A stretch of DNA of 62,383 bases, counting the filler, from Globobulimina sp. (Eukaryota): assembly GCA_003354225.1 (NCBI GenBank). It is 23 parts of 23 records of this genome, joined end to end, with 100 filler letters (N's around TTAATTAATTAA, not from the genome) between each part and the next. Parts side by side here need not be neighbours in the genome. Positions count along the whole stretch, not along the records: positions 46,197 to 48,812 come from PIVH01005709.1; 22 more parts are not named here. One strand, 5' to 3'. How positions within the stretch are numbered: position 1 is the first letter of the stretch; each line of letters starts with the position of its first letter. Shown here in pieces: positions 16,600 to 61,809 of the stretch. Under the pieces are notes generated by a model. That model did not search any database, was not told the origin of the DNA, and worked only from the letters and a program-made list of their open reading frames with translations. Made by a program: the position numbers and the translations under genes.

Positions 16600-18821
16600 G
16601 TGTTAGTTTTAAATCTGTGTCGACGGTATTATAGGAGGAGAGGAGGAGAACTAAGTTTTTTATATTATTATGTATCATATCTCAATTTTTGTGCTCTCTC
16701 TGTATTATATTTTATTTTGTTGTGCAATTTGCGGTATTTTCTTTATTATTATTTCTTTATAATTAGTTATAACCTTTTATTCATAATTAATACGAATTAC
16801 ATTGCTGGTCACCTGTACCATAAAACAGCGGCTATTTTAGCAACAAACCACAACATTAAGCGAACCACAAATTACTACCCTAAAATAAGTAGTCAGACGT
16901 TACTCGAAATTGCCTCGGCAAAAGAGAACGCCATAAAAAATGATAAAAAATGTATATTCATTCGACTTACGAAATTAAATATCAACACAAAAAAAGAATA
17001 CATAACAAATCAATTATTTTATGATTATGAGTTATTACAGCTGAGAAACATGACATTTTGTTTGAAAATGTCATGCAAATCAGCTGCATTTATTTCAAAC
17101 ACGTTCAACCACACAGATAACGTTGAGATAACCACAGACAGTCAGATCAGCACACAAAGCCCCGTAAACGCACAATGACAGACCCTAATATCTATAACAC
17201 GGGCTTCATGCTCAGCACGGTCCACGCAAAACACACAAATAAACTCTATAAATACATTGAAAAGCACCAACATTCGATCCGTAACTATTTCAAACATGTA
17301 CAGATTATTATGCACAAATCGCTGCGATGGATTACGCTAAGGATGCCAGTTCATCGCCTTAACCCAATAAAATACCACATTCTACACAATTTCCCGACAA
17401 TGATACCCATCCGATTTAAAACCATCCCCTACAAAGACACTACGGTGGAGCAATTCGACACGGTCCAGTTGCACGCTTATAACAAAGACCCGGCCATAAT
17501 CAATGACATCCACTCCTTCCTAAAGAAACATGATTACGCTGAATCTGAACCAATCATCCAGCAATCCAGCAAACACAGTAAATACCACATCCGTTGGGAC
17601 GTTCCAGAGTCCAAGGACCATAAACAAATAATATCACATTGGAATGCGAACCAGCGGTTCAACTGTGTGAATTTCCACCGCATAAACAGATCGCGACACA
17701 TAAACAACATGAAAAATAATGCAATACTTGCCCTAAACCAGATGTTTAAATATGCCGTCTCCCATCATCGCACCGACCATACCAACCTAAAAAAGTACAA
17801 AAAATACCTAATCCACAAAGTAATGCAAAACCATTTAAACAACAAAGATTTCACAGATAACGACCTCCCTCACATCATACAGAAATTCCCTTTCCTGCAG
17901 CTATATGCCCCGAAGATTGAGCCCATCACTGCCACGAAAATAACTGTAAAAAATCTGACCATTGGTTTCCTAAATATCAACGGCTCAGCAAAATACCGCG
18001 TCCAACACACCCACCCGTACATGCAGCAACTAATCACATACCATAAACTAGATATAATCTGCCTCATTGACACACGGCGCACGGCGCGACCGAATTGGCC
18101 CCTAACAGGTTACACGATGATTGCCCACAAAGCTCCAATGCAGACCGACAACTACGGCAAAATCGGTGGCATCATGATCTATAAAAAGCGACACCTGAAA
18201 AACAAAGTACATTACATGCAAAAAACCAGAGGGCATAACACAATCTGGCTCTCCATCGAGTTTGAGCAGCAATCAAAACCAACATATTTATCCATAAATT
18301 ATGCCCGGCCATATAAAGCTGACAAATCAAAGAGAAGCCAACAATTCTACGAGCTACTCACAAATGACATTAATAAATACAAACCGGCTTGTTCCAATAT
18401 GTTTGTCATTGGAGATTTCAACGCCAGACTTGGGAGAGAAGTCACTGACCACGCTGTCAATGCCCATTACCATCACATGAAGGCTCTATTAATGCACACA
18501 GATCTCCGCATAGCCAACCCAATATTTGCGCCATATTTCCTCACCAGCCTCTCCAAAGATACTGCCCATACCGGTGGCTCGATCATAGACTTTGTAATGA
18601 CAGATAAAATAGCAGACATTGAAAAGATCAAAGTGGACACGCACCCAATTTTCACTGACCACAGACCGGTCATTTTCGCCCTCAAACAGTCAAACTGCAA
18701 GGTCTCATATGCTGATCAGCACTTTGTATTGCGAGCGTATGCACCCAGTAAAAAACTGATACCAATTCATCGTCAAATCATTGAAAACAGATTACCGCAT
18801 ATTAGAAAATTCGCAACATAG
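16600..18821 (+). mobile_element. 5' part of a non-LTR retrotransposon: upstream ORF (to 17178) and ORF 17175-18821 with an APE endonuclease; no RT within the contig
   Basis: IGFLNING, LDIICLIDTR, GGIMIY, SINYARP, VIGDFNARLG, SIIDFV and TDHRPV are the L1-type endonuclease motif series. Confidence 0.85.
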
Positions 18822-19484: not shown

Positions 19485-20790
19485 ATGCAAGGCACACAAA
19501 TGGAGAAAAGTTATTCATTGGTATCCAATTCATCCCCACACTCACAAAAAAGCAACTATCCTAATCGAGATCCGTCATTTTTATTTTCTTCATCAAATAA
19601 AAAAGCAGGAGTAGAATTAGAGGTAAATATTAATCCATTGTTTAGCATTGAAGTATATACTGCAACAAAAGCATCATTACGGGAACATGTATTCATATCA
19701 AAAGATGTCACAAAACGTTTATCAGAATATATTGTCAATGAAGATTGGGACAATAAGAATGAGTATGGCTCATTGTATAAATATTTAGATTATATATTCA
19801 GATGTCAATTATTCAAAAAACAAGTTATTCAGATTGATAATACATATTTAATGTTTCATACTGGATTACAACGAAGAACTGACTCTGAATTTATATATGC
19901 TCTTCTTATTCCAAATAAAAAATATGTTCAACAGAAATGGAGAGTGGGTTTTGGAAATATTAAACATTCATTCTTATCAAAAAAAGAAATATTATATAAA
20001 TTAAGATATTTATTATATTCGAATGTCGGTCCTCGTAAATATAAAAAACCACATTGTTTATTAGCTCAAATATTACCAAAAAGAACTAAATTCCATCAAT
20101 CATTAAATGATTTTTTATTTGATGATTCATTTCAAATTGAAGGTATATTATATATAATATACTGCAACTTTAATAGCTTAATTTATAATTTTGTATATTT
20201 CTTAATTTTAATATGTCAACTTTTCTATTTTATTAATCTATGTACACACTACACACCACACAGTTAATTGGGAAGAACGAATAATTACAAATAAAGATAG
20301 AATTTGTAAAGTATTAGGAGTTGAAGTTGAACAATTTGCACAAAAATGGAAAATAAGACAATTGATGAATGTGTTTGACAGAGCATTAGAAAAAACAAAA
20401 AAAACATTAGCATTAAATCCGCGGTTAGCTGTGGGCCAAGGCTTCGTTGACACGAAACATTGTACATATCGAATGGAATTGTTGTTGCCATTAAATATTG
20501 AATATCCTAAATTTAGTAATCAACTGTTTACATTTGCTTTGGCAATCGGTAAATCTACAGATCAGACACAAACATATACTGCAAAATCAATTTTAACCAC
20601 AAATATGGCTTATAATAATGCACGATTAGTTTCATATGTTGACAGTTCATGGTTATCACCGCCACCACCAACAACAACAAATATTATTAATAAAAAATCT
20701 CAACAACAACAAATACCACATATTGCATCTTCCTATGCATATGATTCACATTCACATTATTCTGCAAATAATGATTATATTTTATGTTAA
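19485..20790 (+). CDS. DUF3825 domain protein, two exons (intron 20143-20263)
   Basis: EDW...LYKYLDYIF, FHTGL...IYAL, spliced EVNWEERIITNKDRI, NPRLAV, MELLLPL and SILTTNMAYNNARLVSYVDSSWL; the GT-AG intron restores the frame. Confidence 0.8.
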
Positions 20791-21746: not shown

Positions 21747-24364
21747 CAATCCATCGATGCATATGCCACCATTAGCGCATGATGGCATGCCAGGCCAGGA
21801 TGAAATGCATGGCGGATGCGGTCCAATGTGTAAACAACAGTTACAGATGCACGGAGGAATGGGTATGCAGGGTATGCACGGAGGAATGAATCCAATGATG
21901 GGAGGAATGGGTGGTATGAATGGAGGCATGATGGGCGGTCAACATCCAATGAATGGAGGAATGAATGGAGGAATGATGGGCGGTCAACATCCAATGGGTG
22001 GCATGAATGGCATGAATGGCATGAATGCCATGAATGGAATGGGAGGTCAATATGGAATGAATGGAATGCAAACACAGATTGGTTTTAATGGTAAAAATTC
22101 AATGTTACCGGCAAACGGGAAAATAACCAAATGCCAACCATTGGCACATATGAAATTATGTACAACTTTTGATAAGATGAAGAATAAGATGTTAATTAAT
22201 GTTAAAGTGGGCAAAACAAAAAGGAAAAAGAAATCTAAATCAGATTTAAAAAAGAGCGATCGATACAAATTAAAAAAGAAATCATCTTCAGATTTATTTC
22301 CTATTTACAAGAATCCATTTAAAAAAAAAAGCAGAGGACCAACAAAAAGAAGCAAAACAAAGAGACTGAGCAGCAAAAAAGCAAAAGGTGGTAAAGAGGC
22401 TAAAGCAGCCCAACAATACTTTGATGAATTGTATTATAGTTATAATTATGCCGGTGATCGAGAAGAAGAAATGAATGAAAATGGCAATGAAAATTCAGAC
22501 TTTTACATGGATTTCAAAATAATGGAGAGTGAAAATGATATTGCTGACGATTTTGATGAATTATTTGATGATTTTGACGATTATCAGCAAAATTATTATG
22601 AGAGTGACACTCAAAATGCAATGGAAGATTATCAAAATTATTATCAAGATGAAGATTACGAATATTATGAGGATTATGATTATGAAGATGTGGATTATGA
22701 ATATGAACAAGTTGATCATGAAGATGACCAATATTATTATTATGAATATGATGATGATGAATACACATATGATGATGATGAGGATGAGTATGAATATGAC
22801 GATGAGTCAGATGACATATACGATGAAGCAGATGATATATATGATGATTATGGATATTATGATTATGAAGATGAAGATAAATATATTGATGCGTACGATA
22901 TCGATGACCAAATAGATTTTGAATTTGATGATGAAGCATTTGATAATAAATATTTTTCGGATTTATTGGGTGAATTAGATGTCTCTGAAACAGATAATAA
23001 AGCCATGGAAGATTATCAGGATGAACTGGATCAAAATCAAGCAGAATCTGACGATGACGATGAGGATGCGGATGATTTTGAATATTCAGATGATGAATTA
23101 AATGAATTTGAACAATATTTAGATTATGCAGAATATTTAGATGATTCATACAATACAAAACAAGATTCATTACAACAATTATCATATTTTAATGACGAAT
23201 TTTATGATAAATTGGAAAATATGGATGATAATTATATGAGTAATAACTATGACTCCTTAATGGATGCCTCAGAATTCGAAGCAAATGCATTAAATTGGCG
23301 CAATTTTGATGATTTTGACTCATGGATTAAAACTTTCCAAACAGCTGATCATAAATTAAGCGATAAAATATTATCACAAGACATCTCATCAAAAGACAAC
23401 GCATTATTTTTAGACTACGGTTCATTCATAGACTATAACGATATATATGATTTTGATTGGAATGATGACAATCATTGGACATCCATTTACAATAAAAACA
23501 AGGATAAAACTACAGTAAACTCAATGGGTGTACGTGATGGTAAAAAATGTACTGAAATCATTCCATTTCTGCAAAGTAAATTGTGTCTAAATATGAATGA
23601 TGTCAAACTAAACTTACATCTTATTTCTGCTTCAAAACAAGCACTCACTGATATGCAGAATGCCAATTACATCAATCAATGGGATACATATATAACATCC
23701 AACGACAACGATAATCAACCAACCAAACAAAAGCGACGCAGATTAACTGATAACAACGACGATAATTACCATTATACACAATATTATGACTATGATTTTA
23801 TAGATGACAGCGAAGAGGACGAAGAGGATGAATATGCGGCAACTTTAATAGACCAACAAACGCAACAAATGCACATTGCAAACTATTATTCTTCACTCAA
23901 CGCATTTGATTACAACGTACCGCTTGGTTTTTATGACGACGCCGGCAATTTTTATAACCGCAACTCACTCCGACAATTATTAAATTTCCACTTTCAAAAC
24001 GGTTTGGACCTAAACGATGATGACGACTGGGATGAAGTGAGTATCACACACCACACAAATGACGCAAAACCGCCCACAGATAAACTCTCCGCCGCTGCTA
24101 TGGCCGGCGACAACTATTACAATGCATTATATTTGGCAGAAGACGGCTTTTCCGGCAAAGGAAAGTATTATAAAAAACAGGCCACATTGTCTGAAAGTGC
24201 GCAGACTGGCATCGAGGACGAATCCTTTTTATCCTCCATCCGCCAGATGGTGAAGGGTATGAAAGCCGGGACCTTAGCCTTTGAGACCTCTATGCAACGC
24301 GGCATGCCGGTACAGCTGCCGAATGTATTCGAGAAAATCAAGAAATGCGTGTCTGCCGACCCGT
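21747..24364 (+). CDS. Modular low-complexity protein (Gly/Met-rich, Lys/Ser-rich, very Asp/Glu/Tyr-rich), partial at both ends
   Basis: Uninterrupted frame of about 870 aa spanning the whole contig. Confidence 0.85.
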
Positions 24365-25188: not shown

Positions 25189-26734
25189 TCAATGTTTACT
25201 TCCAAATATTATTCCCATAACCGTCATATTTATTGAGTTGCTATTTTTTATTCCTTTTGGGAAATTCCAAATCGTACACCACATTGCAACCGCAATTTGA
25301 AATATGACAGTTGGCAATACATTTGTCCTTAACAGCTTGAACAAGTTTGGAAATGTATTTTCCTTCACACGTTTCATAATCCATTCCATCGCTTTAGGTA
25401 CACAATACAGCATCAATTCCGGTCTACGTCTTTCATTCTCAATAAACAGTGACAAGCCAGTCATCAATCCACCAAAACAGGCCAACCACCACGGATCGTC
25501 ACGTATTATATTACGAACAAAGCATAGCGTATATCGCATATTAAACACATACGTCGCCAGAAACATCGCAGACACGATGGTATTCCATGTTTTTTTTTTA
25601 ATAAATTCTACTGGCTCCAACAAAATACTCTTCGGCGACAACAAAATGGTCGGAACAAAGTGCACAGGAAAATACATTTTGGCCGCACGGCCCAGCGCAA
25701 AAAACCAGTCTTTAACAGAAAAATACAGACAACTGTGAGTATTATGCCATATTGGATAACATTCCACAAACTGTTCGTGAGGCAATCGGTAATTTGCACC
25801 GGAAGGCGAACGCAACACAGTTTGGACAGCGTGTTCCGGAATGTTGCCCATTCCCAGTATCCATTGATAATATTTTCGATCCAAATGTGCTGGATCTTTG
25901 ATTGCAGCAAACATTATAAGCACTTGTGACGCTGAAAAGGTCATCACATCAAAATGTTTGATGGCTGCTATTTTTTTATGTGCTACACATAGTCGAACAG
26001 CATCTGAGATTGCTCGAACAATGCAATACAAAGCAATGGTATTCCGCCGTTTTGCGGTATCCAATAAAATGAATATACTGCAAATAAATCCCGCAATGGT
26101 TTTATGCCAAACTGGGTCTCGTAGGCGATATCTTCGCAAGCAACATAATATTACTTTGTATGTAAAAGACATCAATGCAAAAATATTGGCAAATAATAAT
26201 GAGTCCTGACTTAAATATATTTGCCGGATTCGCTGCCAAGATATGGTACCGTTTTTGAATAATTTTCCAGAGAATAAACTTGTGAAAAATGCTAAACTTG
26301 TTTTGAATATAAACGCGGCGGCAAATGTCCGCCAAAATCCTTTATTGTTGGCAATGAAAACATGTGTTTTGTTGATTTGTTTTGTGATTTTGTTTTTTTT
26401 ACGTACCTTTCATGAATGCATTTTGAATACAATGATGGCGATGGGGACATAATAAAAAGCGCCTTTTTTCAATGATTGAGATATCAGCTTTGATGATATC
26501 ACGTATTAATAAGCGATATGATGGTATAGAGCGGTATAATTTTAATACGTCATTTATTTCTTTTGATTTGGAAATATTTTTGTTTTTTGATGGAGATAAT
26601 GATGACAATACTGGCGTGGATATTGATTTTGGAAGTCTTGTTTTTCCTTTTGGTTTTGGTTGGATTGGTGTCAAATCATCCATGATTTCATTCTTTTCCT
26701 CATCATCATGAACATTTTTCTCCGAGTCACTCAT
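25189..26734 (-). CDS. TMEM135: Transmembrane protein 135-like, intron 26340-26406
   Basis: RRNTIALYCIVRA, MYFPVHFVP and SLFIENERRRPELMLYCVPKA; the GTACGT...AAAG intron joins the two ORFs in frame. Confidence 0.8.
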
Positions 26735-29774: not shown

Positions 29775-29899
29775 GGGCTTTATTAAGCCTAAGACAATNN
29801 NNNNNNNNNNNNNNNNNNNNNNNNNNNNNNNNNNNNNNNNNNTTAATTAATTAANNNNNNNNNNNNNNNNNNNNNNNNNNNNNNNNNNNNNNNNNNNNA

Positions 29900-32515
29900 A
29901 AAGCGGTCAAAATCAAATTGCCCTCAAAAGATGAGTGGGATAAAAATCTCAAATCGATTTTGCAGCGCATCCCGAAAAAATTTAAAGTTATCAAAGCTAT
30001 GAACGATTCAGATTGGTGTTTAAAAATCAAAAACAATGATTTTATCATCGAAAACAAACAAGATTTTGCTAAAATTGGTGCGATTATCAACAGTTTGAAG
30101 CCGCCGGTAATGCTCCAAATCATCGATAGCATCAACACAATGACCGACAATTTGATCAATGACATGTCTGTCAACGAAATCAAAGTGCTACAATCTGCTT
30201 TGAATAAGGCACCCAAAGCCAAGGCAGCCAAACCGCAGCCGCTCGGCTTAGCCGTTCCCAAATTGCCCAAACATTTATTACGCACTCAGTCGTCGCGCAC
30301 AGTGCGTATCGCCGCGTCCAAGCCCAAAGTTTACGTCTTTAACAAAAACAAAGGCTATAAATATAAGCGGAAAACGCCAAAAACATTAAAAAAAAAGAAA
30401 TTAACCAAAGAATTGGCGGAAATCAAGGAAGATGAGGACGACGACAACAAAGACGACGCCGAAACAGAAGACGAAAAACCCGCTGTCAACATTGAGGAGT
30501 TGTTGGCCAACCCTTTGTTTTTGGCCTTTGAGTCTATCAAATTGACGGACAAATTGATCGAATTAGGAACGTATATCGCCGTCTTACCCGACGACAAGAA
30601 AAAGCAGCTCAAAAATACCCTGAATAACATCTTGGAAAAACACAGCAAAGGCTCAGGTATAATTTGTGTGCAATCTCAATCTCCGTCCGTCGTAACCTAA
30701 AACAACACCAAACCCACAGCCAATAAGGAGAACAACCTGCAAATCTTCCAGATGCTGCTCAGTAACATGGCGTCCGCCGGCGACAACGAATACGTTGGCG
30801 GCATGTTTAAGTTCCTCGCCTTGTTGGGCTACGCCGTGGGTGCTCGCGGCGAGATATCGGGCGACGCGGACCCCGCCGTTTTGGAGGACGTCGCCTCTGC
30901 CTTCTACCACCTCTCCAATGCGATGCAGAAGCCGCGGCCCAACATCTACGACTTATTAGGCATCGAAATCCCCGACGAAGACAACGATATTTCGCGCCAC
31001 GCCTCCGGCCTCAACTGCGCTCGCTTTATCATCTTCGAGCTCAACGAGATCTTATTAGAGAACCAGCAGTCTTCGTTGGTGGACAAATCCGTGTTAGACC
31101 CCATCCGCTTGGAGCGCTTCATGAATTTCTTGGTGCCCGGAGCCAGCAAATACAAATGCAAGGAAATCTTCTTCGAGAAGTTGAAGAAATTGCAGGTGTT
31201 CAGCATCGGCTTGTTCGGCACTCGCGAGGAGATTCTGGGCCTTTTACTGCACAAATTCGGCGCCATTTCGCGCATTTTGTATGACCGACTGTTGCAGGAC
31301 GAGGATAATAGTTGGCTGCGGCCCGGAATCCACGCCATTATGCCGGTGGGTATCCAGAAGGGGCAAGGAACGGCAATGCAGCAATGGGACCATATCATTT
31401 ATCTCTTTTATTTCTCGATGCACCGCTCCTTCGATATGAAGGCCATGAAAGCCGTGAAATATATGCGGAAGGACCCGAGCTGTTTGCTGTCGCGCGTACT
31501 CTTTGAAATTAGTAACACGGTTTGCATCAATGTGGCGACGGAGGAGCTGACTTCGTTTGGTTGCGTCGAGGAAGAGGACGAGAAACAGGATGCGGTGCAG
31601 AGTGGGAAGAAGAAGAAGAAGCGGAAAAGGCGGCAGAAGCTGAACTTTTCGGTGGAGGAAACCAAGGATAATCATATTATGGCCACGCCGCAGCCGAGCA
31701 AAGCGATCCAAATCAATGTCAAATCTGACGACGGCCGCAATGAATGGAAAAAATTTGCCATTGGTATGTGTTTTTTTTCTTCGGTTTGAAACTGAAACGT
31801 TTTGCTGTTTCCGCATTTTTTTTTCAGTTTGAAACTATTTCCCGTTTTTGACGGAATCTATTTTCAGTTTGAAACTGCAAAAAATGGCATATTGTTACAT
31901 AGGCAGTCGAGTGGATGTTTATTCTGAGAATGGATGGTTTACCGCAAAGATAACGGGTATTAAGCTAAAATCCATTCAAATTCATTACATTGGCTATTCC
32001 TCAGAGTACGACGAATGGCTAAGTATCGAGCATGGCGCAGATATTTATTGCGACTGCGAGAAGCTATGCGAAAATGACGTCCATTTATTGTCCAAAGTGA
32101 GGACGCAGACCAAATACCAGCACATTGCGGAAGAAAATGACGGCAAAATCGATTATCAGTTCGTGTCCAACCGCAAGATTCGCGAAATTGCGTCGGATTC
32201 GTATTTATTTGGCGGCAATAATTTGAATGGGTATATGCAACTATTCAAGGTTGAAAAACGAGAGGGCCGCGACCAAAACACCGAGCAACTGACGAAGAAA
32301 AAAGATTTAATCGCGTTTCTCACCGATTTGAACGAGAAACATATCTTAAAATGGACCTATGAGTTCGCCAAATCGTTCGGAATCCGAATGTTGGCGCAGG
32401 CCGCCCTGAATAGTAAAATTTATAACACTTTTAAGTTAAATATGAACCGCATTAACGAGCAAGAAAAGGAAGCCTTACTTCCGGATACCATTCAAATTGA
32501 AGTGGACCGAATCAT
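29900..32515 (+). CDS. Large protein with Tudor-knot/chromo-barrel-like domain; partial, introns 30657-30719 and 31764-31902
   Basis: Both GT-AG introns restore the frame; spliced WKKFAIGSRVDVYSENGWFTAKITG...IHYIGYSSEYDEWLS. Confidence 0.7.
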
Positions 32516-32615
32516 NNNNNNNNNNNNNNNNNNNNNNNNNNNNNNNNNNNNNNNNNNNNTTAATTAATTAANNNNNNNNNNNNNNNNNNNNNNNNNNNNN
32601 NNNNNNNNNNNNNNN

Positions 32616-35232
32616 ATGCACGCACGGCACACGCATGCGTATGCGCACGCATGTGATCATGATTGCATGCATGCGTGCATACATGCCAACAACATTATCA
32701 CCCACATCAAGTAACCATCAACCACATGCATGCATGCACGCATGCACGCACGCACGTGTGCATACACGAGCATGCATGCATGTGCGATGACACACATGCA
32801 TGCGAACGCACATGCACATACATACATATACACATGCATGTGAATCAATGCATACATGCGTACGGGCACGCAAGCATCCATACGCACACGCACACATGCA
32901 CACATATCACCCCGTGTGTGCACCCACACACCGGGACACATGTGTATGCGTGCATTCACACACAGCCATTTTCCAACGCACGCACACATGCACACGCCAA
33001 CGTGTGTACGTGCTCAAACACATATGAGTGCATACACGCACGCATGCATGCACCCACTCATACACACTCCAATTTTCCGGACTGCATACACGCACAGATG
33101 ATTACGCGCATGTGCGCACATTCGTAACTGTTGTGCACATATGAACATGCATGCGCAACATCACACGTGCACATGTACACACACACACACACGCATGCAC
33201 ATGCGTGCGTGAGTACGTGTGCACATACACGTTTACATGCATGCACTCGTGAAGCATGTGCCGTAGTCAAATGTGTGTACATGCACCTATAGTTCACAAC
33301 ATGCATGCACACATTGATGTATGCCCCCACACACAATTACCCCCATACGCATGGTTGCACACGCACACATGGGCATGACCATGCATCAATGCATGCGCAC
33401 ATTCATATGCGTACATGTTAATATGCACGCATGCACACAAACGAATAGACGCATTTGCATATACGAATTGTTGTGTGTGCCTATGCGTGCACATACGTAT
33501 ACAGGCATGCATGAATGCATACACGTGTGCGTGCATTAACACATGCAACCACTCATATGCACACACCGCATGCATATACACATACATGCGCGATCCCACG
33601 AATACGCAATCACAGACGTGCACCCACGCGCGAACACACAGGCATTTACACATGCACACGTGCATGCACACACATGCACAGCTCTATGCACACATGCGTG
33701 CATGCACACGCATATGCAATCCGCACATCGTGCAACACACTCATACATGTATGAGATCATGCATGCATACATCCACACACATTCAAACACGCACCTCGGC
33801 ATGCATTGCACAATGCCCGCATGCGCACATGCGTTCATACAAATGCGTGTGCACATTTACGTGCGTTTGCGATGATATATTTATGGATGCACATGCGCAC
33901 GCATGCGTACGGATGTGCGCCCGTAGAATCAATATTGCATGCTCGCGCGAACATGCATACTGACATGCATGCATTTATCATTGCGCACACGTATGCACAC
34001 GCACACACACTGTGCCATGCATAAACACACGCATGCGTGCAGTCGCGCAGTCATGTGTTCATGAATAAGGTCACACCGTTGTGCATTCATGCGAGCATAC
34101 ATGCATGAGCCATGCAACACGCACACCCACACACACATGCGCACATGCACGCACATGCACGCACGCACGTGCTGGTGTTGCGCCGCAGCAACTCACACAC
34201 ATTCATGCATGACTGTGCGCATGCATGTGATGCTTGGCGTTTGCACACACGCACACCCACGCCCATGCACGTGTGCATATACAAATGCGCGTGCGCATGC
34301 GTCAACATATGCATATGCGCGTACCTATGCACACATGTAAGCCCACATGCGTGCGCCAACACAGTTGTCAATGCACATATGCATGAATTAGTGGGCGCGT
34401 GCGTGCACACATGTATGCATGCGCACATGCACCCACACGCATGTTGGTACACCCATGCATGTTCGCATTCATGCACACTTAGTAATGTGTGTATTAACTC
34501 ATGCATGCGCGCACGCATGCACACACGCATACGCGCATGTGCGAGTCCATAGCTGCGTGCATTGCTTTGCACACACGCATGCACACACATGCACGCGTGC
34601 GTGCATATATGAATGCACGCACGCGCGCATAAATACACAACTGTGCGCATACGCACGCGCACACACAAACGCGCATGCATACATGCACGCACAATTGTAT
34701 GCATGTGCACATGCTCACATTGGGGCGTTTGCGCAATTCAATCATGTGTGCCGCATGCGGCCACCGATTGACGGCGCGCGTGTTGTGCTAACCAGTTGGT
34801 TATGCAATCATCCGATACCAACAATTGGTGCCCCGCGCAGCGCGGTATGCGCTCGTACACTCAGCCGCTAGCACGAGCGTATGGACATAGCATAATATGT
34901 GTTGTCGATGCTCATCACACATAATGTGTTGATTCAGTGGCTTGGTGTGGCGACAGCATGCTACATGCGGGCGCTATGTGCGCGCCATTGCTTCTACCCG
35001 GGTAATGCGAACTATCATTGCATACAACAAGTATTGTGATTATGAATGCATGCATGAACTCGTACGCGCATGATTCAGTTGTGGCATGACTGCGAACGAT
35101 CATGAACACACCCACGCCGATGTGTGTGCATGCACACATATAATTGAGTACGCGCTTACATTGTCACACATGCATGATGGTAACCATTGATGCATATGCA
35201 CGCACATGCACATGCATGCAATCACGTGTGCA
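32616..35232. repeat. Cryptically simple purine/pyrimidine-alternating sequence (CA/TG/CG/TA mix) filling the whole contig
   Basis: Continuous ATGCACGCACACATGCATGCGTG-type text with no fixed unit; all His/Ala/Cys/Met/Thr/Val ORFs here are by-products. Confidence 0.9.
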
Positions 35233-45560: not shown

Positions 45561-46342
45561 TTGCTTTTGCATAATCAAATTTTTAATTCTGTCCATCACT
45601 CTGTGACTGCTGTCTGCTGTCTGTGCATACTGTATTCTTCAACTGACAAAGAAGAAGCACTCAAATATCGACTTAAAAAGATCGAGAAAATAGCAGTCGA
45701 ACTCGAACAGAGAGAAGCAGCGAAAAATAAGAAACTGAAAGGTAGCGAATGGAACACCGGTGCCACTGTGGAAGAGTTTGATTTTATTAAATTGTACAAA
45801 GACTGTCAATGACTATTAAACATATTGGATTGTTGGAGTGCAATATATTCGATTACATCTCCAAAATATTGTCAGGTCAGATGTATACAAATGGAAAGTA
45901 CTCAAGTTTCTTGTCAAGAGCCGCGGAAATATGATATCGATTGAAGTGTCTACATATTCATTGGCGATCGATCCATAACATAATATTTGGTATAAACGCC
46001 TTGCTCAAAGTAGATGGTCAAATTATGCTGTTTTTCACAACTGTGAGACACTTTCATTTGCCATAAAAAAACTTCAACTTTTTCACTAACCAAATANNNN
46101 NNNNNNNNNNNNNNNNNNNNNNNNNNNNNNNNNNNNNNNNTTAATTAATTAANNNNNNNNNNNNNNNNNNNNNNNNNNNNNNNNNNNNNNNNNNNNGTAA
46201 TGCAACCATTACCCATAGTAATCTATGGTGATTATAGATGGATGACGCACTCAAGTGAGGTGAATCAAAACTTTGTTAATATATTTTCTGTCACGACAGC
46301 ATGGTGCAAACAAAAATGAAAAATGTCGCAGTGTAAAATAAC

Positions 46343-48721
46343 ATGGCAGTTTGTGTCAATAGAAATTACGAGAAACTTCCAAACTTTATTCATAAGCAGC
46401 TCCATTACCACATATACACCATCCAACATCATAAATTCTGTGCTGGCGTCGAATCCATTCGAATACGAACACATAACATTCCTCGATACGCAGAACAGAT
46501 GAACAGAAAAATAAAAATGTCCGCTTCCAAAAGACATTCAATTCCAGGTGCAATACACATCGATGTTATCAATATCAAATCTGATGCGGAACAAAGTAAC
46601 CATCCCATTCCAAAAGAAATAGACAAAGAAACAGTAATATCGTGGATATCCGCCATCATAAAGTCGACCCATTCCGGTGATATCCGCGCAGTAAAATTAA
46701 TATATTCTACCATCCAATCTCTCCATTTATCCACTGTTTATCCTCCAATCTATCACGCATTGATCTGCGGCCATGGCAAACTCGGCGACATTGACACAAT
46801 GCTCCATTTGTACCACACACTGTTACACCATCACAAAGCAAATGGCAATGCGTTACCAGTCGTGACCTCCAGCATAGTGACCACAGTCTTATCATGTTTG
46901 GCAATGTACAGACGGACCTTTGAAGCAATCACATTATTCGACCAATATTTAGCACTTCCAGACTCACAGCCGGATATCCATGCATTTTGTATGATGTTTC
47001 GACATTGCTCGTTCACTGCAAATTGGCACTTATCCAGCAAATATTTTGTCAAAATGTATAAAAGTTACAAGCTGCATCCAAATGATTTATGTTTTAAGTA
47101 CATATTAGAAACGTGTTTCTATTGCAAACCGCCCAAATACGAAGAAGCAATCTCTATTTTGCATGGCATGGAATCAGATTGGAACATCCAACCGAATGTG
47201 CTGCATTTTTGCGCAGTGATTCGCACTCTGTCCACTCCGTTCGCGTTGATTCAAAACCCATTGTCTCAGGACGTCGCAGTGCAGATTGAAAACAATAACG
47301 ATTTCCAACTGTATAAATTCAAATTGTTACACGGCAGATTGTTTGACAACATATCAGTCAATAAATGTTTAAGTGATTCAGACTTGCAACGCTGTTTAGA
47401 TTTATTCGATGAAATGACCGATGTTTATGGCGTCATACCCAACGATAAAGCGTTTGGTGAATTGTTCTATGCCATGGACAAGGCGAGAAACCTCGAAATG
47501 GCACTGAAATATCGGCAATATTGGAAGCGGAAGTTTCCCACAGTTCGCCAGCAAGGCTACAGTTTCCAGAGACTGCTCAGTATTTGTTCCAGTATCTCCT
47601 CATGGAATGATGCAGTGAGTATTTATGAAAGCACTGCTTTGATTGACGATTTGTACAGTTACGATGGGGACACTTTGCAGCTTCAGGCTCATCATAAGGT
47701 GCAGCCGGAAATTGGTGTATTTACGCAATTGTTACGCTGTGCGAAGAATGATGTGTCGCGACAGCTTTTCGATGGCATTTTGACTAAAATGGAAGCAGAG
47801 GAAGTTATATTGGACAGAATAAAATATGTTCAGTCGCAAATGTATAGTTTTGGCTACACACCGAATGACATGACATGGGTATTTTTGCTGCAGTCCGCGG
47901 CCATGGTGGAAAGTAAAGATTTATGCGATAGGTTTTTGAAGAGAATGTTCCAATTTTTCATGAAACCATATCAGCAGAAACGCGTCCGAGCCTTTATGAA
48001 TTGGGGAGAAAATGAGCATTTTTATCAACAAATGGGGGATAAAAAAATGATACCAAATGAATTTGCTGATCGTGATGATACGTTTGCGAATTGCTGGGAC
48101 TATTATGATGTCAATAAATTTAATGTCGGTTTTGGAGTGTTTCAAGCCATCATAGCTGCTTTGTTTTGGAGCAAACAAATTGAGAAAGCAGTGATGTTGT
48201 ATCATGATTTTTATTTTGTAAAACAAGCATTTACACATTGGCATACCACAATGGATGGGGGAAATGCAATGGATGGAGATATTGATATTGATTTTCATGG
48301 ATATGATCCAGCTCTCGCAGCTATTGCATTGTTATATATATTTCAGAACGAGTTTGAGAGTGTTTATTATAATTTTCTATGTCAAACACTTAATGACAGT
48401 ATGTTCAGTGATTTAAAGGACAAAAATGCATCGGAATTAGTGATAAATCTAAAATTGAACAATAATCATGAATATATGGATAGGGATCTTAAAATAGAGA
48501 GGAGAAAGGGACGGAATTTAAAGATAATAACAGGAAAAGGTACTGGTAATGAGGAAGGAACGAGTATTTTAAGACCATGGATAAAATTATGGCTTGAAAA
48601 TGAATTCGTTCCACCAATTCAATCATATATACATCCCAGAAATGTTGGTGTCTTAGTCTTAAATTCAAATGACGTTCTTGCTTATATTCAACAAAACAGA
48701 CATAAATTTGGTAATCATTGA
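46343..48721 (+). CDS. Pentatricopeptide-repeat protein with C-terminal SMR domain (PPR-SMR)
   Basis: PPR-like repeats (IYHALICGHGKLGDIDTMLHLY, PDIHAFCMMF, PNDLCFKYILETC, PNVLHFCAVI, PNDKAFGELF, PNDMTWVFLL); SMR motifs IDFHGY, LKIITGKG, ILRPWI, NVGVLV. Confidence 0.88.
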   Translation: MAVCVNRNYEKLPNFIHKQLHYHIYTIQHHKFCAGVESIRIRTHNIPRYAEQMNRKIKMSASKRHSIPGAIHIDVINIKSDAEQSNHPIPKEIDKETVISWISAIIKSTHSGDIRAVKLIYSTIQSLHLSTVYPPIYHALICGHGKLGDIDTMLHLYHTLLHHHKANGNALPVVTSSIVTTVLSCLAMYRRTFEAITLFDQYLALPDSQPDIHAFCMMFRHCSFTANWHLSSKYFVKMYKSYKLHPNDLCFKYILETCFYCKPPKYEEAISILHGMESDWNIQPNVLHFCAVIRTLSTPFALIQNPLSQDVAVQIENNNDFQLYKFKLLHGRLFDNISVNKCLSDSDLQRCLDLFDEMTDVYGVIPNDKAFGELFYAMDKARNLEMALKYRQYWKRKFPTVRQQGYSFQRLLSICSSISSWNDAVSIYESTALIDDLYSYDGDTLQLQAHHKVQPEIGVFTQLLRCAKNDVSRQLFDGILTKMEAEEVILDRIKYVQSQMYSFGYTPNDMTWVFLLQSAAMVESKDLCDRFLKRMFQFFMKPYQQKRVRAFMNWGENEHFYQQMGDKKMIPNEFADRDDTFANCWDYYDVNKFNVGFGVFQAIIAALFWSKQIEKAVMLYHDFYFVKQAFTHWHTTMDGGNAMDGDIDIDFHGYDPALAAIALLYIFQNEFESVYYNFLCQTLNDSMFSDLKDKNASELVINLKLNNNHEYMDRDLKIERRKGRNLKIITGKGTGNEEGTSILRPWIKLWLENEFVPPIQSYIHPRNVGVLVLNSNDVLAYIQQNRHKFGNH

Positions 48722-48912
48722 AAGTTGAGTTAGTTGACACACGTTGTCCTTCAGTCGCACAACTAATATTATTGCCGAATCGTTAAATATAGATCAAGTG
48801 CTGAATATTCAANNNNNNNNNNNNNNNNNNNNNNNNNNNNNNNNNNNNNNNNNNNNTTAATTAATTAANNNNNNNNNNNNNNNNNNNNNNNNNNNNNNNN
48901 NNNNNNNNNNNN

Positions 48913-50076
48913 AACCACCTCGACATGCTCATTTACCCGTTGAGTTCCATAAAATGTCCAATTTCTATTAAATATTCGGCTGTAAAATATCGGTAAAAAG
49001 TCATATTTCTCTTTATATTGAGTTTCCATCATTGAATTGACAGCATTAACAGCTGAGGCTCTTGCATGTTTCACATGTTCCAAACGAACACTTTCACCAT
49101 AAAATCGATTGCCTACACAAGCAATATCACCACAAGCAAAAATATCTTTAACTGTGCTTTCCATAAATCCATTTACTTTGATTCCTCTTTTCTCCATTTT
49201 CAACTCTTGAATATCTTTAAATAAATCGCAATTTGGTCTTGCTCCAATCCCTACAAACACAAAATCGCCAGCAATGCATTCATTATCATCCAACAAAACC
49301 CCCTCCACATCTCCGTCATCATCGCCTTCAAATCCTATCACTTTTTTATTCTTAACAAAAGTAACTCCGTTTTGAGCAAACAAGTCCTCGTAAAATGATG
49401 CAATTTTTTCATTGAAAACGTTACAAATTTGCATTAAATAATTTTCAGGAAATATCATGGAAATTGCATCAAAACCATTTGCAATCAAAGCTGCAGTGAC
49501 CTCCATACCCATATAACCTCCGCCAACCACTATAGCGGATTTCTTATTGTTTTCCAAGGGGGTTTTCATTGCAATTGATAACTTTTCCGCATCTGCAAAC
49601 GTTCTCAAATAATAAATACCATTCAAATCACTACCTTTTGTTCCAAAATCAGTAAACTTGACTGAGTGACAACCAGTGGCTATTAGCAGTTTCGAATATT
49701 TTATTTGATGCGCAAAGCTATCTCGAATACATAAAATTGACGAATTATGTACATCTAAATTCGTAGCAGTGGTGTTTAATTTTGTCACAATGCCATTGTC
49801 ATCATACCATTTTTGATCATGTGATTGGTCGATAAAAGCACAGGTATTGAAGTTTGGCAATGCTGTGCTACCTAATAAATATCCCTTTGATAATGCAGGT
49901 CGTTCATATGGTAAAATATGGTCTGCGGAAATCATGCAAACTTCGTTTTTATTCGCACCGTTTTTTATGAATTCATTGCATGCATAACCTGCAGCATTGC
50001 CGCCACCAATAATCACATACTTGTACTCTTCGATTTTTTCGTCATCAAGTTCAGTTTGAGAATGACAGGCACCCAT
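48913..50076 (-). CDS. MDAR: Monodehydroascorbate reductase (plant-type FAD/NADH oxidoreductase), 3'-partial
   Basis: YKYVIIGGGNAAGYA, PYERPALSKGYL, LPNFNTC, VVGGGYMGMEV, RLEHVKHARASA, YDFLPIFYSRIF. Confidence 0.85.
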
Positions 50077-50872
50077 CTTTGTCAAAATACAAATGATAAA
50101 AGTTAGTGTGAAAACAGTCAAAGTGTACAAGTAAAAAATGATGTTATAATTTATTGCATGATTAATATAATATATATTTGTTTTGTGGTGTTTGTTTCTA
50201 GAAGAGGTTAATTTTCAAACAGTGTATAGGAAGTTAGTTTAATAACCGACGTTTCAGCAAAATGATGCCTTTGTCAAGGTTTGTAATTTAAAATGTAAAG
50301 AGTTTTTGTGTTTACTAAGAAACATAAAAAACAAAACACAATAAAGTATATCCAGTACAGAAAGTAAAAAAAGAATGAAATAAGATTGGGACTATGCAAA
50401 AATAAAAGAATAATGTTGTGGATGCAAATAATATGGAAAAAATACAAAATATAATAAAGTATGATATTGAATGCAAAAAAGTAAATATTATAGAACCAAT
50501 CAATATATATATATAAAAAATAAAATATAGAATAGAATGTCATTTATTAATATTTAATTTTAGTTTGATTCATTTATTAATATGGTAGAAAAAGTAAACA
50601 AAGTAAAAAAATGAAGTAAAAAATGAGAAATGAGTAATGATTCAAGGATACAAATATACAAAAGATACAAAAATAAAAGTAAAAGTATAACAAAAATAAC
50701 AACAAAATAACATATAACATATAATCAAAACAAAAGCAAAAAATTAAAGGAATGATACACAATTTGGAAATTTGAAAATTATTAATAAGAAGATGCAAAA
50801 TGATTGTAAGTGATTTGAAAAGATTTAAAATGCAAACAAATAGGAATGATAATAAAGAATATGATTATATAT

Positions 50873-59848: not shown

Positions 59849-61809
59849 CAGTTAGAAGCTGTTGTAATGGATTTGGAATGGATATTATGGTAAGCTATAC
59901 ACAATACAGTGTAATATACTATATATCAGACAAAACAAAACAAAGAAATTAACAGCAAAATTATGCGACGGATATGATAAGTTTGGCAAAAATTTAAGCC
60001 ACACAGTGGAACAAGAAACTAATTTCATCCATAAATATGCCTCTAAATCGCATGAAAATTCTTCCTTCCTCCTTATTATGTCAATTTATAACAGATTTAG
60101 CCATCAATTTCCAACAAATTGCCCAACAAATCACCACCACAATGATCCATCCATTGGTAGACTTTCAAAAACAATGCGATTCCAAATATTCAACCATTTA
60201 TAAAAAACACGAACACGCGCATAATAAATACATCTCTGATCAAAATAACTTGAATTCATACAGCGATAAATATAAATCTATGATAAACAACGAACGAAAT
60301 AAATTCAAATTAATTCGATTATTATCCTCAAGTATTATGCCTCCGAATGACCACAAAACGCTTAAAAAATCCTGACATTCACCTTCCAAATTCAACCAAT
60401 CTGTGAGTAAATTTATAGAAAAGGCAAAGACAAAAACGCTACGCAAAGTGTCCATGAATTTGGGCAACAACAAATTATTATCCTCCTCGGACAACGAAGA
60501 TGAGAAAAAAGAGGAAATCAATGATATCTATGAGTTGCACACGAAAGAGGAGCTCGACCGCAATAATATGGATAAAAAAGAGCACATTCCATTGTTATAT
60601 GCAATGTATAGATACAGCAATACGAGGAACAAATTATTGGTGGCCGAGGATGTCTTCGTTCAGCAAATCGACAAAGTAAATCACTCCATGACGCAGTACG
60701 AGTATATTCGCAAAGGAAGCATGAAAGCAATGCAAAAAGCGGAAATTGAGCGGTTTGCACAAAGCAAGAAAGTGTATTTATCACTATGTTCCACGTTCGG
60801 TTTGGACGATTTTGAGCAAACTGACAAAAAACAACACATTGTGTCGTTTATTAAGTTTAAAGCATCCGTCGATGCGATGGAATCGCATGTCGATTTTCAT
60901 AATTTTGTGTCGCAAAACGAGGAGAAATACGCCAAACCCTCGAAATTAGTGTCCTCGTCGATGTTGACCGCATGGCGAACACCGTACCATTTATTCGAAG
61001 ATCTAATGTTTAACCAAATCCATAATGAGCACATGAACAAGAATACGCTGAAAGTGCCCTATATCTTTGAGTATTTAATGGAACATATCGAGAGTCAGTC
61101 CGCCATCAATGATCCAGACATTTTTATGCTGAATGCAATCTCACCCAAGGAATCCAACATCGATCAGTCATTTTCGTACTGGAATAAGGACTCATTGACC
61201 AGCATAAAGACAACGGACACTGCGGCCATACCGGTGCTATGTCAACAGATCAACGAATTGTACGAATGTAAGCAGATAAATGTGACTGACCACCATCATG
61301 CCATTATTTTATTGAAGTTGTGGTTGTATAAATCGCCGGAACCGATCATCCCGTATTATTTGTATGACACAGTCTGTTTGTTTCAGTTTCAAAACAGCGT
61401 GAAACAGCGCGCCAAGTTCGTTGAAACTGAGATATTGAATAAATTGTAGACGGTGAGAATGCATTGCTTGGCTCGCTTGGTTTAGATCTGTAAAAAGATT
61501 GTCAAGCAACAACATGAAATCACTATAATTGATTTAAGCTACGAGTTATCAAATGTTATTATTCGGAATGGCAAGATTGATAAATTCAGACAGTTGGATC
61601 CGGTGAATAATAGCAAGGATAATATTGATGATGCGAGTAAATTGAAAGTGATGTTGGATCCGCAGACGACGTATAAGTTACCGTTGTCGCCTTCGCATCA
61701 AATTAAAAGAGCGGAAATGGCATTTATTACTTATATTTTATCCAATCGTGTGCCGATGTTAAATGATAAGAAATTGGTGAATCATGGACCAAAATTATCT
61801 GCCAAATAA
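59849..61809 (+). pseudogene. F-BAR-like plus RhoGAP-like gene interrupted by four in-frame stops (pseudogene, or recoded/edited gene)
   Basis: One frame from 59956 to 61809 with TAA 59995, TGA 60373, TAG 61447 and TAG 61483; coiled-coil (MIHPLVDF, MQKAEIERF) then VPYIFEYL, LLKLWLYKSPEPIIPYYLY; intron 59890-59955. Confidence 0.7.

What the first reader, a model, noticed from the sequence alone, without database searches (positions are those of the whole stretch)
46343..48721. PPR-SMR protein in an apparently non-plant protist
Seen: at least six PPR-like repeats and a C-terminal SMR domain (DFHG, IITGKG, NxG) carrying a long insertion. Established: PPR-SMR proteins (GUN1, pTAC2, SOT1, SVR7) are best known from plant organelles, and SOT1 is a sequence-guided rRNA endonuclease. 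Inference: a programmable organellar RNA nuclease, possibly for mitochondrial rRNA/mRNA processing or kleptoplast maintenance. The gene is intronless, so its host is not proven.
Basis: partly seen in the sequence, partly recalled or inferred. Interest (0 to 1): 0.72.

Follow-up and report, generated by a model that had tools for sequence, protein, structure and literature searches.

The report
PPR-SMR gene, probably from a foraminifer
This is an intact gene for an RNA-binding repeat protein fused to a small nuclease-type domain, a design known from plant and algal organelles, and its closest labelled relatives come from foraminifera, which have no plastids of their own.

Summary
ORF 46343-48721 (+) encodes 792 aa. 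Pfam PPR_2 and PPR pass their cut-offs. The family profile hits designer PPR proteins at E=1.6e-32.

The C-terminus is an Smr domain. Pfam Smr is below cut-off (17.1 vs 25.7 bits) because a ~47-residue loop splits the domain. [quoted passage not shown] All six best of 48,161 PDB chains are Smr domains, led by plant pTAC2/PAP2 at Z 9.2. The IDFH and TGKG motifs are conserved in the family.

The window is 23 unrelated contigs joined by artificial spacers, so neighbouring ORFs say nothing about the host.

The family is tiny: 7 proteins at E<=1e-30 among 1.84 billion representatives. Its only two species-labelled members come from foraminiferal transcriptomes.

Most likely it is a nuclear-encoded mitochondrial RNA-binding endonuclease that works like SOT1. 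Localisation, target RNA and nuclease activity are inferred, not shown. A role in kleptoplast maintenance has no support. I rate it a new member of a known kind, of moderate interest.

The parts
46197..48812 (.). The separate 2616-nt contig that carries the gene. It is bounded on both sides by artificial 100-nt spacers (N44-TTAATTAATTAA-N44) at 46097-46196 and 48813-48912.
   Evidence: 22 identical spacers split the window into 23 contigs of 2619 to 2614 nt in descending length.
46343..48721 (+). Complete ORF of 792 aa (P0001): a PPR-SMR protein.
   Evidence: upstream in-frame TAA, TGA stop; 794-codon open frame vs at most 158 in 300 shuffles. Of the 40 listed differences in other runs, 29 are at codon position 3 and 31 are synonymous.
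46343..46612 (+). N-terminal ~90 residues. Low model confidence and weak conservation apart from an IRIRTH-like strand. Possible organelle-targeting region (inferred).
   Evidence: pLDDT below 50 for residues 1-36 and 46-76; net charge +3 in the first 40 residues, but the amphipathic-helix test is inconclusive across the family.
46625..48220 (+). PPR-type alpha-solenoid, residues 95-626, about 30 helices.
   Evidence: 64 PDB matches at E<=1e-3; cPPR 6.9e-11; PAP2/pTAC2 4e-10 over 838 columns.
46733..47215 (+). Best-conserved PPR block, about four consecutive motifs (approximately residues 131-291).
   Evidence: profile positions 131-291 align to 149 residues of dPPR-U10 at E=1.6e-32. Pfam PPR 136-158, PPR_3 209-258, PPR_2 260-296.
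47234..47347 (+). Family-specific conserved insert within the PPR tract, residues 298-335 (NPLSQD...YKFKLLHGRLF).
   Evidence: invariant Y324 K325 L328 L329 H330 L333 F334 in 9 of 9 sequences; pLDDT below 50 for residues 301-318.
47381..47533 (+). PPR motifs at residues 347-397.
   Evidence: cPPR-Telo1, E=6.3e-12 for the whole protein. (PPR_long 339-387).
48230..48712 (+). Smr domain with its N-terminal FTHW strand, residues 630-790.
   Evidence: [quoted passage not shown] (six best of 48,161 chains are all Smr, Z 9.2 to 5.4).. (reciprocal profile search).
48287..48298 (+). IDFH, the XaDXH/LDXH motif of subfamily-2 Smr domains (residues 649-652).
   Evidence: D650 and H652 are invariant in 12 of 12 family sequences.
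48389..48508 (+). Variable, low-confidence loop inserted between helix 1 and strand 2 of the Smr domain (residues 683-722).
   Evidence: model residues 72-111, pLDDT below 50. (length varies among homologs). (spacing 75 vs 28). (an in-frame 12-nt deletion at 48491 in run X6 falls inside the loop).
48530..48541 (+). TGKG, the TGXG motif (residues 730-733).
   Evidence: G731 and G733 are invariant in 12 of 12; T730 in 11 of 12.
48632..48649 (+). HPRNVG, the C-terminal Smr motif (residues 764-769).
   Evidence: P765 and N767 are invariant; H764, R766 and G769 are conserved in at least 90%.

Best explanation
A real, complete gene under selection. It encodes a P-class pentatricopeptide-repeat protein fused to a C-terminal subfamily-2 Smr domain. 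It belongs to a small, divergent family whose only species-labelled members come from foraminifera.

Proposed mechanism (inferred). The protein is made in the cytosol and imported into the mitochondrion. The PPR solenoid binds one or a few specific mitochondrial transcripts. The Smr domain, with its IDFH and TGKG motifs intact, cuts the RNA near the bound site, as shown for plant SOT1.

Such site-specific processing would be useful in foraminiferal mitochondria. Their genomes lack tRNA genes and carry fragmented rRNAs.

Shown here: the gene, its architecture, its fold, motif conservation and purifying selection. Inferred: host, localisation, RNA target and nuclease activity.
For: The gene is real. 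The ORF is 794 codons against at most 158 in 300 shuffles. Colinear contigs occur in 4 runs from 4 studies with no joints. Of the 40 listed differences, 29 lie at codon position 3 and 31 are synonymous.

PPR identity. Pfam PPR_2 and PPR pass their cut-offs. All 9 family members match both families. The profile hits designer PPRs at E=1.6e-32. The full-length model gives 64 PDB matches at E<=1e-3, and all of those listed that I could identify from their titles are PPR proteins.

Smr identity. [quoted passage not shown] The six best of 48,161 chains are Smr domains: PAP2/pTAC2 Z 9.2 and 9.0, MutS2 7.2, N4BP2 7.2 and 7.1, YdaL 5.4; the next chain scores 4.6. The C-terminal profile finds 87 proteins at E<=1e-3 among 1.84 billion. 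Of 83 of these that I scanned, 50 carry Pfam Smr at E<=0.01 and 37 carry PPR. Of the 10 scanned individually, 5 pass the Smr cut-off. An HW...xDxH...TGxG module is shared with 12 of 76 distant hits.

Catalytic motifs. D650, H652, G731 and G733 are invariant in 12 of 12, and T730 in 11 of 12. In SOT1, TGXG is critical for RNA cleavage and LDXH for DNA cleavage (PMC6662315, passages).

Host. The two labelled homologs are from Nonionella stella and Bolivina argentea. The window protein is sister to the Bolivina-labelled one, 98/97 support. No algal sequence is closer than E about 1e-4 to the Smr profile.

Mitochondrial need. Foraminiferal mitogenomes lack tRNA and ribosomal-protein genes and have fragmented rRNAs (PMC10127745, abstract and passages).
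Against: Pfam Smr is below its curated cut-off: 17.1 and 20.5 bits against 25.7. Foldseek gave no PDB match at E<=1e-3 for the C-terminal model; the best was E=0.097. The C-terminal model has a mean pLDDT of only 65.8.

No localisation predictor was available. The N-terminus carries net positive charge in 7 of 9 homologs, but an amphipathic helix is significant in only 2 of 9.

The host rests on two labels from field-collected transcriptomes that can carry prey. The window gives no linkage, and GC3 of its ORFs ranges from 0.23 to 0.72, so the assembly may be mixed.

The best structural match, pTAC2, is a plant PPR-SMR whose Smr motif is degenerate and whose nuclease activity is unknown (PMC6662315).

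No nuclease assay exists for this family, and no target RNA could be predicted.
Confidence: 0.55

Rival explanations
1. Same protein, host and organelle, but the Smr domain does not cut RNA. The protein would act as an RNA stabiliser, translation activator or complex scaffold, as reported for several plant PPR-SMRs (PPR53/ATP4, pTAC2 in the plastid RNA polymerase).
For: The best structural matches are PAP2/pTAC2, a structural subunit of the plastid RNA polymerase. The reviews note that nuclease activity has been shown only for SOT1 among plant PPR-SMRs (PMC6662315). The ~47-residue loop inserted in the Smr domain could affect the active site.
Against: Both motifs are invariant or nearly so across 12 divergent sequences, down to 33% identity. 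That argues for a conserved chemical role. pTAC2 itself has lost TGXG (SVRG; PMC6662315), whereas this family keeps it.
Confidence: 0.22
2. The gene belongs to an algal prey organism, symbiont or kleptoplast donor, not to the foraminifer or other host. It would then be an ordinary plastid-targeted PPR-SMR of a poorly sampled alga.
For: The window gives no linkage. ORF composition in the window is heterogeneous, GC3 0.23-0.72. A neighbouring contig carries an MDHAR-like gene whose named matches are all plants and algae, at 35-47% identity. PPR-SMRs were reported as confined to chloroplast-bearing species (PMC3858433, abstract and passages). Distant Smr-profile hits include a diatom protein.
Against: An exhaustive profile search of 1.84 billion representatives gives no close relative from any named alga. 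The diatom hit is at E=9.3e-5. The two labelled homologs are 61% identical to each other and come from two different foraminifer sets. That fits host orthologs better than a shared contaminant. Near-identical copies occur under three organism labels in four studies.
Confidence: 0.12
3. A host-encoded factor that maintains stolen plastids (kleptoplasts) by processing plastid RNA.
For: One labelled homolog is from Nonionella stella. That this species keeps kleptoplasts is my recollection; the library lists papers on foraminiferal kleptoplasty (listing only). PPR-SMRs in plants are mostly plastid proteins (PMC6662315).
Against: The family has at least 12 divergent members, including one labelled Bolivina argentea. 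A function tied to an optional, species-specific trait is less parsimonious than one tied to the universal mitochondrion. No plastid-targeting signal could be tested.
Confidence: 0.04
4. The Smr domain acts on DNA, nicking branched or recombining organelle DNA, with the PPR tract serving as an anchor.
For: [quoted passage not shown] D650 and H652 are invariant here. Isolated Smr domains of MutS2, B3BP and YdaL nick DNA (PMC3858433).
Against: [quoted passage not shown] PPR tracts bind single-stranded RNA.
Confidence: 0.07

Closest known systems
pTAC2 / PAP2 (At1g74850), plant PPR-SMR subunit of the plastid-encoded RNA polymerase (PDB 8r5o_G, 9epc_G, 8w9z_E)
   Same: It is the best structural match of the C-terminal module: Z 9.2 with 113 residues aligned at rmsd 3.1, and Z 9.0. 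The whole-protein match is E=4e-10 over 838 columns. The order of PPR solenoid followed by Smr is the same.
   Different: Sequence identity is only 12%. pTAC2 has a degenerate TGXG (SVRG; PMC6662315), whereas this protein keeps TGKG. This protein has a ~47-residue loop in the Smr domain. Orthology was not tested.
SOT1 / PPR53 (At5g46580), chloroplast PPR-SMR RNA endonuclease
   Same: The architecture is the same and the TGXG motif is intact. It is the functional model adopted here: the PPR tract gives specificity and the Smr domain cuts nearby (PMC6662315, passages).
   Different: SOT1 has LDVR rather than an xDxH motif. It acts in plastids on the 23S-4.5S precursor. No sequence-level orthology was shown, and no activity data exist for this family.
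GUN1 (At2g31400)
   Same: It is reported as the only Arabidopsis PPR-SMR that keeps both LDXH and TGXG (PMC3858433). This family also keeps both.
   Different: GUN1 is a plastid protein of streptophytes. Its relationship to this family was not tested.
PPR-SMRs of diatoms, brown algae and dinoflagellates
   Same: [quoted passage not shown] Distant profile hits include a diatom protein (P0048). The EukProt protein P0015 carries the same HW...DFH junction.
   Different: The similarity is only remote: E=2.8e-10 for P0015 and 9.3e-5 for P0048, against 1e-34 or better within the family. Those lineages have plastids.
Stand-alone and other Smr nucleases (N4BP2/B3BP, MutS2 Smr, YdaL)
   Same: They share the fold, at Z 7.2, 7.2, 7.1 and 5.4, and they share the central GxG motif alignment.
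   Different: They have no PPR tract. MutS2 and YdaL have HGXG rather than TGXG (PMC3858433). Their DxH-to-GxG spacing is canonical.

Membership tests
PPR (Pfam PF01535 / PF13041) | Tandem ~35-aa repeats that score above the curated Pfam cut-offs | tested here: met
   PPR_2 34.7 bits (cut-off 30) and PPR 28.5 bits (cut-off 25). All 9 family members match both at E<=1. Taken singly, only 4 of 12 hairpin fragments give weak hits, E 0.024-0.2.
PPR (Pfam PF01535 / PF13041) | Alpha-solenoid fold like solved PPR proteins | tested here: met
   Full-length model: pLDDT 75.6, pTM 0.73. Foldseek gives 64 PDB matches at E<=1e-3. The top ones are cPPR 6.9e-11, PAP2 4e-10, dPPR and PPR10.
PPR (Pfam PF01535 / PF13041) | Canonical nucleotide-specifying residues (positions 5 and 35) that allow target prediction | not tested
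   I read the register only by eye from the alignment. My own repeat HMM failed. No organelle genome of the organism was available.
Smr domain (Pfam PF01713) | Score at or above Pfam's gathering cut-off (25.7 bits) | tested here: not met
   17.1 bits for the whole protein and 20.5 bits for the C-terminus alone. Only model positions 24-59 of 77 align, because the inserted loop separates the first motif. 5 of 9 family members match at E<=1.
Smr domain (Pfam PF01713) | [quoted passage not shown] | tested here: met
   Topology. VIA-align: the six best of 48,161 chains are all Smr, Z 9.2, 9.0, 7.2, 7.2, 7.1 and 5.4, and the next is 4.6. Foldseek ranks 1, 2, 4 and 10 are Smr domains, but the best E is 0.097.
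Smr domain, subfamily 2 | N-terminal LDXH / XaDXH motif | tested here: met
   IDFH at residues 649-652. D650 and H652 are invariant in 12 of 12. The motif definition comes from PMC3858433 and PMC12787238.
Smr domain, subfamily 2 | Central TGXG motif | tested here: met
   TGKG at residues 730-733. G731 and G733 are invariant in 12 of 12; T730 in 11 of 12, with Cys in P0007.
Smr domain (Pfam PF01713) | A reciprocal profile search retrieves bona fide Smr proteins | tested here: met
   The A2 profile finds 87 proteins at E<=1e-3 among 1.84 billion. Of 83 scanned, 50 carry Pfam Smr at E<=0.01. Of 10 scanned individually, 5 pass the cut-off at 27.1-36.4 bits. The four best hits of a profile search of PDB sequences are Smr domains, but at E 0.12-0.34.
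Smr domain (Pfam PF01713) | Endonuclease activity | not testable with these tools
   This needs a biochemical assay.
PPR-SMR subgroup of P-class PPR proteins | PPR array followed by a C-terminal Smr domain in one polypeptide | tested here: met
   The junction motif HW...xDxH...TGxG is shared with 12 of 76 distant hits.
PPR-SMR subgroup of P-class PPR proteins | Orthology to a named plant or algal PPR-SMR clade | not tested
PPR-SMR subgroup of P-class PPR proteins | Host carries a plastid (distribution reported in PMC3858433) | tested here: inconclusive
   The labelled relatives are foraminifera, which I recall as lacking permanent plastids. The host of this contig is not proven.
Organelle-targeted PPR proteins | N-terminal mitochondrial or plastid targeting peptide | tested here: inconclusive
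   Net charge is +3 to +7 in the first 40 residues of 7 of 9 homologs. The amphipathic moment exceeds shuffles in only 2 of 9. No TargetP-type tool was available.

The most novel reading that the evidence does not exclude
PPR-SMR proteins are not confined to plastid-bearing lineages. Foraminifera (Retaria) would have their own conserved mitochondrial PPR-SMR endonuclease. It would define transcript or rRNA-fragment ends in mitochondria that have lost every tRNA gene and carry fragmented rRNAs.

The shared HW...DxH...TGxG junction with algal PPR-SMRs would mean one of two things. Either the fusion is older than plastid acquisition, or foraminifera obtained it from algal symbionts and retargeted it to mitochondria.
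Probability: 0.25. Interest if true: 0.6.

Novelty: new member of a known kind. Interest (0 to 1): 0.38.

Why it matters
If the host is a foraminifer, the known range of the PPR-SMR architecture extends into Rhizaria without permanent plastids. A 2013 survey described these proteins as limited to chloroplast-bearing species (PMC3858433, abstract). I found no paper in the searchable library linking PPR-SMR or Smr to Rhizaria or foraminifera.

It would also give a concrete candidate for RNA processing in foraminiferal mitochondria. Their genomes lack tRNA genes and have fragmented rRNAs (PMC10127745), and nothing is known about how their transcripts are cut.

Unlike most Arabidopsis PPR-SMRs, this family keeps both XaDXH and TGXG. 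That makes it a reasonable Smr domain to assay for RNA endonuclease activity.

If the gene instead comes from algal prey, it is an ordinary divergent PPR-SMR.

Tried and rejected
- A single-sequence search of the C-terminus against PDB sequences gave only insignificant non-Smr hits: mitoribosomal uS9m and S18, E 0.27-0.49.
- My own PPR repeat HMM, built from P0015 repeats, found nothing useful in the family. I abandoned it.
- Hairpin-by-hairpin Pfam scans gave only 4 of 12 weak PPR hits.
- The Protein Atlas search on the C-terminal part had a best score of 0.78, below the useful range.
- Protein Atlas on the whole protein gave nearest clusters that are PPR or 'Smr domain-containing' proteins of plants and algae, scores 0.91-0.94. 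This is a lead only.
- No whole genome is held for the window.
- No earlier findings were found by place, by sequence or by words.
- Two scans of metagenome contigs, with A1 and with P0011, found no relative.
- Host test through other contigs, first attempt. The MDHAR-like ORF has an unnamed best hit at 54%, and its named hits are plants and algae at 35-47%. This does not tell the host.
- Host test through other contigs, second attempt. The 869-aa ORF has no homolog at E<=1e-5.
- Rfam gave 0 matches in the window.
- GC3 comparison is uninformative: 0.23-0.72 across ORFs, and 0.39 for this gene.
- The N-terminal amphipathicity test is inconclusive.
- Sequencing runs: no RNA holder is listed. 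The run kinds are unknown or guessed, so expression and true intron status are not shown.
- The first ~90-110 nt of the contig are not covered by the four runs laid.
- Not done: TargetP; PPR-code target prediction (no organelle genome available); a labelled Smr phylogeny; the supplements of papers, which are closed and may list PPR-SMRs of further protists; and the primary dinoflagellate PPR study cited as ref. 78 in PMC12787238, which I did not read.
Full report
**1. What the window is**

The 62,383-base window is not a continuous piece of genome. N runs occur in pairs at a period that shrinks from 2719 to 2714 bases. Splitting on the pattern N44-12 bases-N44 gives 22 spacers, all with the 12-mer TTAATTAATTAA. 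The result is 23 pieces of 2619 down to 2614 nt in descending order.

So the window is a concatenation of separate, length-sorted contigs of a fragmented assembly. The finding lies alone on the piece 46197-48812 (2616 nt). ORFs on either side are not genomic neighbours and give no evidence about the host. No whole genome is held, and there were no earlier notes.

**2. The gene is real and complete**

- ORF 46343-48721 (+) encodes 792 aa.
- An in-frame TAA lies two codons upstream of the ATG, and the stop is TGA.
- The open frame of 794 codons compares with a maximum of 158 in 300 shuffles of the contig.
- Several homologs start with the same MAVCV-type N-terminus.
- Logan contigs of four runs from four studies lie colinearly on the contig at 90-100% likeness, with no joints.
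- One run holds two contigs of 1603 and 787 nt at about 96% identity. They differ by an in-frame 12-nt deletion inside the Smr loop and a 9-nt deletion just past the stop codon.
- Of the 40 differences listed, out of 101 in all, 29 are at third codon positions and 31 are synonymous. The frame is under purifying selection.
- The kinds of these runs are unknown or guessed, so neither expression nor true intron status is shown.

**3. PPR tract**

- Pfam PPR_2 (34.7 bits, cut-off 30) and PPR (28.5 bits, cut-off 25) pass. PPR_3 and PPR_long are below their cut-offs.
- All 9 aligned family members match PPR and PPR_2.
- A profile of the nine sequences hits designer PPR proteins at E=1.6e-32 over profile positions 131-291, about four repeats. 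It also hits PAP2/pTAC2, PPR10 and mitoribosomal PPR proteins.
- The single sequence matches cPPR over residues 347-397.
- The AlphaFold model of the whole protein (pLDDT 75.6, pTM 0.73) is a helical solenoid from residue 95 to 626.
- Foldseek gives 64 PDB matches at E<=1e-3, led by cPPR (6.9e-11) and PAP2 (4e-10 over 838 columns).
- Taken singly the repeats are divergent. Only 4 of 12 hairpin fragments give weak Pfam PPR hits.
- A family-specific conserved insert sits at residues 298-335.
- 'At least six PPR-like repeats' is fair. 'Programmable' is not something the sequence supports.

**4. Smr domain**

Sequence evidence alone is weak:
- Pfam Smr scores 17.1 bits for the whole protein and 20.5 bits for the C-terminus alone, against a cut-off of 25.7. 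It covers only model positions 24-59 of 77.
- A single-sequence PDB search found nothing relevant.
- A profile of eight C-termini (A2) ranked four Smr chains first among 177,635 PDB sequences, but at E 0.12-0.34.

Structure settles it:
- The C-terminal model (pLDDT 65.8) has strand (IDFH), helix, disordered loop, strand (KIIT), helix, strand, strand. That is the Smr topology.
- VIA-align against 48,161 chains puts six Smr chains on top: 8r5o_G Z 9.2, 9epc_G 9.0, MutS2 Smr 7.2, B3BP/N4BP2 7.2 and 7.1, YdaL 5.4. The next chain scores 4.6.
- Chains 8r5o_G and 9epc_G are PAP2/pTAC2, a plant PPR-SMR protein.
- Foldseek agrees in rank order, but its best E is 0.097.

The reciprocal search agrees:
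- The A2 profile finds 87 proteins at E<=1e-3 among 1.84 billion representatives.
- Of 83 of these scanned, 50 carry Pfam Smr at E<=0.01 and 37 carry PPR.
- Of the 10 scanned individually, 5 pass the Smr cut-off, and 4 of those 5 also have PPR repeats.

Motifs:
- IDFH is at 649-652, TGKG at 730-733 and HPRNVG at 764-769.
- D650, H652, G731, G733, P765 and N767 are invariant in 12 family sequences that go down to 33% identity. T730 is kept in 11 of 12.
- An HW motif precedes the domain. The module HW...xDxH...TGxG recurs in 12 of 76 distant hits.
- The DxH-to-TGxG spacing is 28 in six of those hits, 75 in this protein, and 38-107 in the 12 family-like sequences that carry the motif.
- The 'long insertion' is therefore a variable loop of about 47 residues.

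**5. Whose gene is it?**

- The word-indexed search of 5.8 billion proteins found only 8 homologs, at 39-67% identity.
- Two carry species names: EukProt Nonionella stella and Bolivina argentea, both foraminifera.
- The exhaustive profile search adds a few unnamed relatives. It gives 7 proteins at E<=1e-30 and 9 at E<=1e-10.
- None of the close relatives is from a named alga. The diatom protein P0048 is at E=9.3e-5.
- In a maximum-likelihood tree of 12 family members, the window protein is sister to the Bolivina-labelled sequence with 98/97 support.
- The two labelled sequences are 61% identical to each other. That fits orthologs of two hosts better than one shared contaminant.
- Against this, both sets are field transcriptomes and the window offers no linkage.
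- Composition of the window's ORFs is heterogeneous, GC3 0.23-0.72.
- My attempts to place other contigs taxonomically failed.
- I put the foraminiferal origin at roughly 0.7-0.75.

**6. How it most likely works**

- Plant SOT1 binds the 5' region of the 23S-4.5S precursor through its PPR tract, and its Smr domain cuts about 20 nt away. TGXG is critical for RNA cleavage, and the second and fourth residues of LDXH for DNA cleavage (PMC6662315, passages).
- This family keeps both motifs. Among the eight Arabidopsis PPR-SMRs only GUN1 does (PMC3858433, passages).
- Foraminiferal mitochondrial genomes carry 14-15 protein genes, no tRNA or ribosomal-protein genes, and fragmented rRNAs (PMC10127745, abstract and passages).
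- A site-specific mitochondrial RNA endonuclease is therefore the most economical reading.
- Localisation is only weakly indicated. Net positive N-termini occur in 7 of 9 homologs, and the helix test is inconclusive.
- Activity and target are untested.
- Rivals are a non-catalytic stabiliser or scaffold, an algal owner, a kleptoplast role and a DNA-nicking role.

**7. Comparison with what is known, and novelty**

- The PPR-SMR architecture is well known in plants and green algae.
- It is also reported in heterokonts, in two Legionella longbeachae strains (PMC3858433) and in dinoflagellates (PMC12787238).
- The 2013 survey states that PPR-SMRs are limited to species with chloroplasts.
- I found no paper in the library that links PPR-SMR or Smr to Rhizaria or foraminifera. 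'pentatricopeptide' plus 'foraminifera' gave 13 papers, none on the topic by title or abstract. 'PPR-SMR' plus 'protist' gave 15. 'pentatricopeptide' plus 'Smr domain' plus 'Rhizaria' gave 0.
- The library is partial and supplements were closed.

**Verdict**

This is a new, divergent member of a known kind, probably in a new lineage. It has a loop-split Smr domain that escapes Pfam's cut-off. Interest is moderate.

Noticed in passing
window 1-62383 (spacers e.g. 46097-46196, 48813-48912): The window is 23 separate contigs (2619 to 2614 nt, sorted by length) joined by identical artificial spacers N44-TTAATTAATTAA-N44. Any reading of gene order or synteny in this window is meaningless.
   Followed up: yes
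window 48913-50130 (-): The neighbouring contig carries a monodehydroascorbate-reductase-like gene that is cut by the contig end. Its best hit is an unnamed protein at 54% identity. All its named hits are land plants or algae, at 35-47%.
   Followed up: partly
window 21757-24363 (+): An 869-codon open frame fills a whole contig. It has no Pfam family and no homolog at E<=1e-5 among the 8000 best candidates of 5.8 billion proteins.
   Followed up: partly
window 29899-35232: Two contigs stand out in composition: GC 0.45 and 0.51, against 0.27-0.39 for the other 21. One ORF at 30752-31786 has GC3 0.72. The contig at 32616-35232 begins and ends in ATGCACGC-type low-complexity sequence. The assembly may be mixed or repeat-rich.
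   Followed up: no
protein P0015 (EukProt, 998 aa), residues ~381-485 and ~894-998: This distant hit carries two PPR-plus-Smr modules in tandem. Each has an HW...DFH junction, and its repeats are of the ISACEKG type. That resembles the SACEK motif described for dinoflagellates and related algae in PMC12787238.
   Followed up: no
window 19485-20267 (+), 25189-26175 (-), 17175-18821 (+), 60403-61449 (+): Other contigs carry ordinary eukaryotic domains: DUF3825, Tim17/TMEM135-like, an endonuclease/exonuclease/phosphatase family domain and a weak RhoGAP. Seven of the 20 other long ORFs scanned had no Pfam family at all.
   Followed up: no
window 46343-48721, family alignment A4: Family members fall into compositional groups. 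Some are Asn/Lys-rich (N up to 13.5% in P0006). A pair, P0008 and P0009, is rich in Ala, Arg and Asp. This suggests hosts with very different genome GC content.
   Followed up: no
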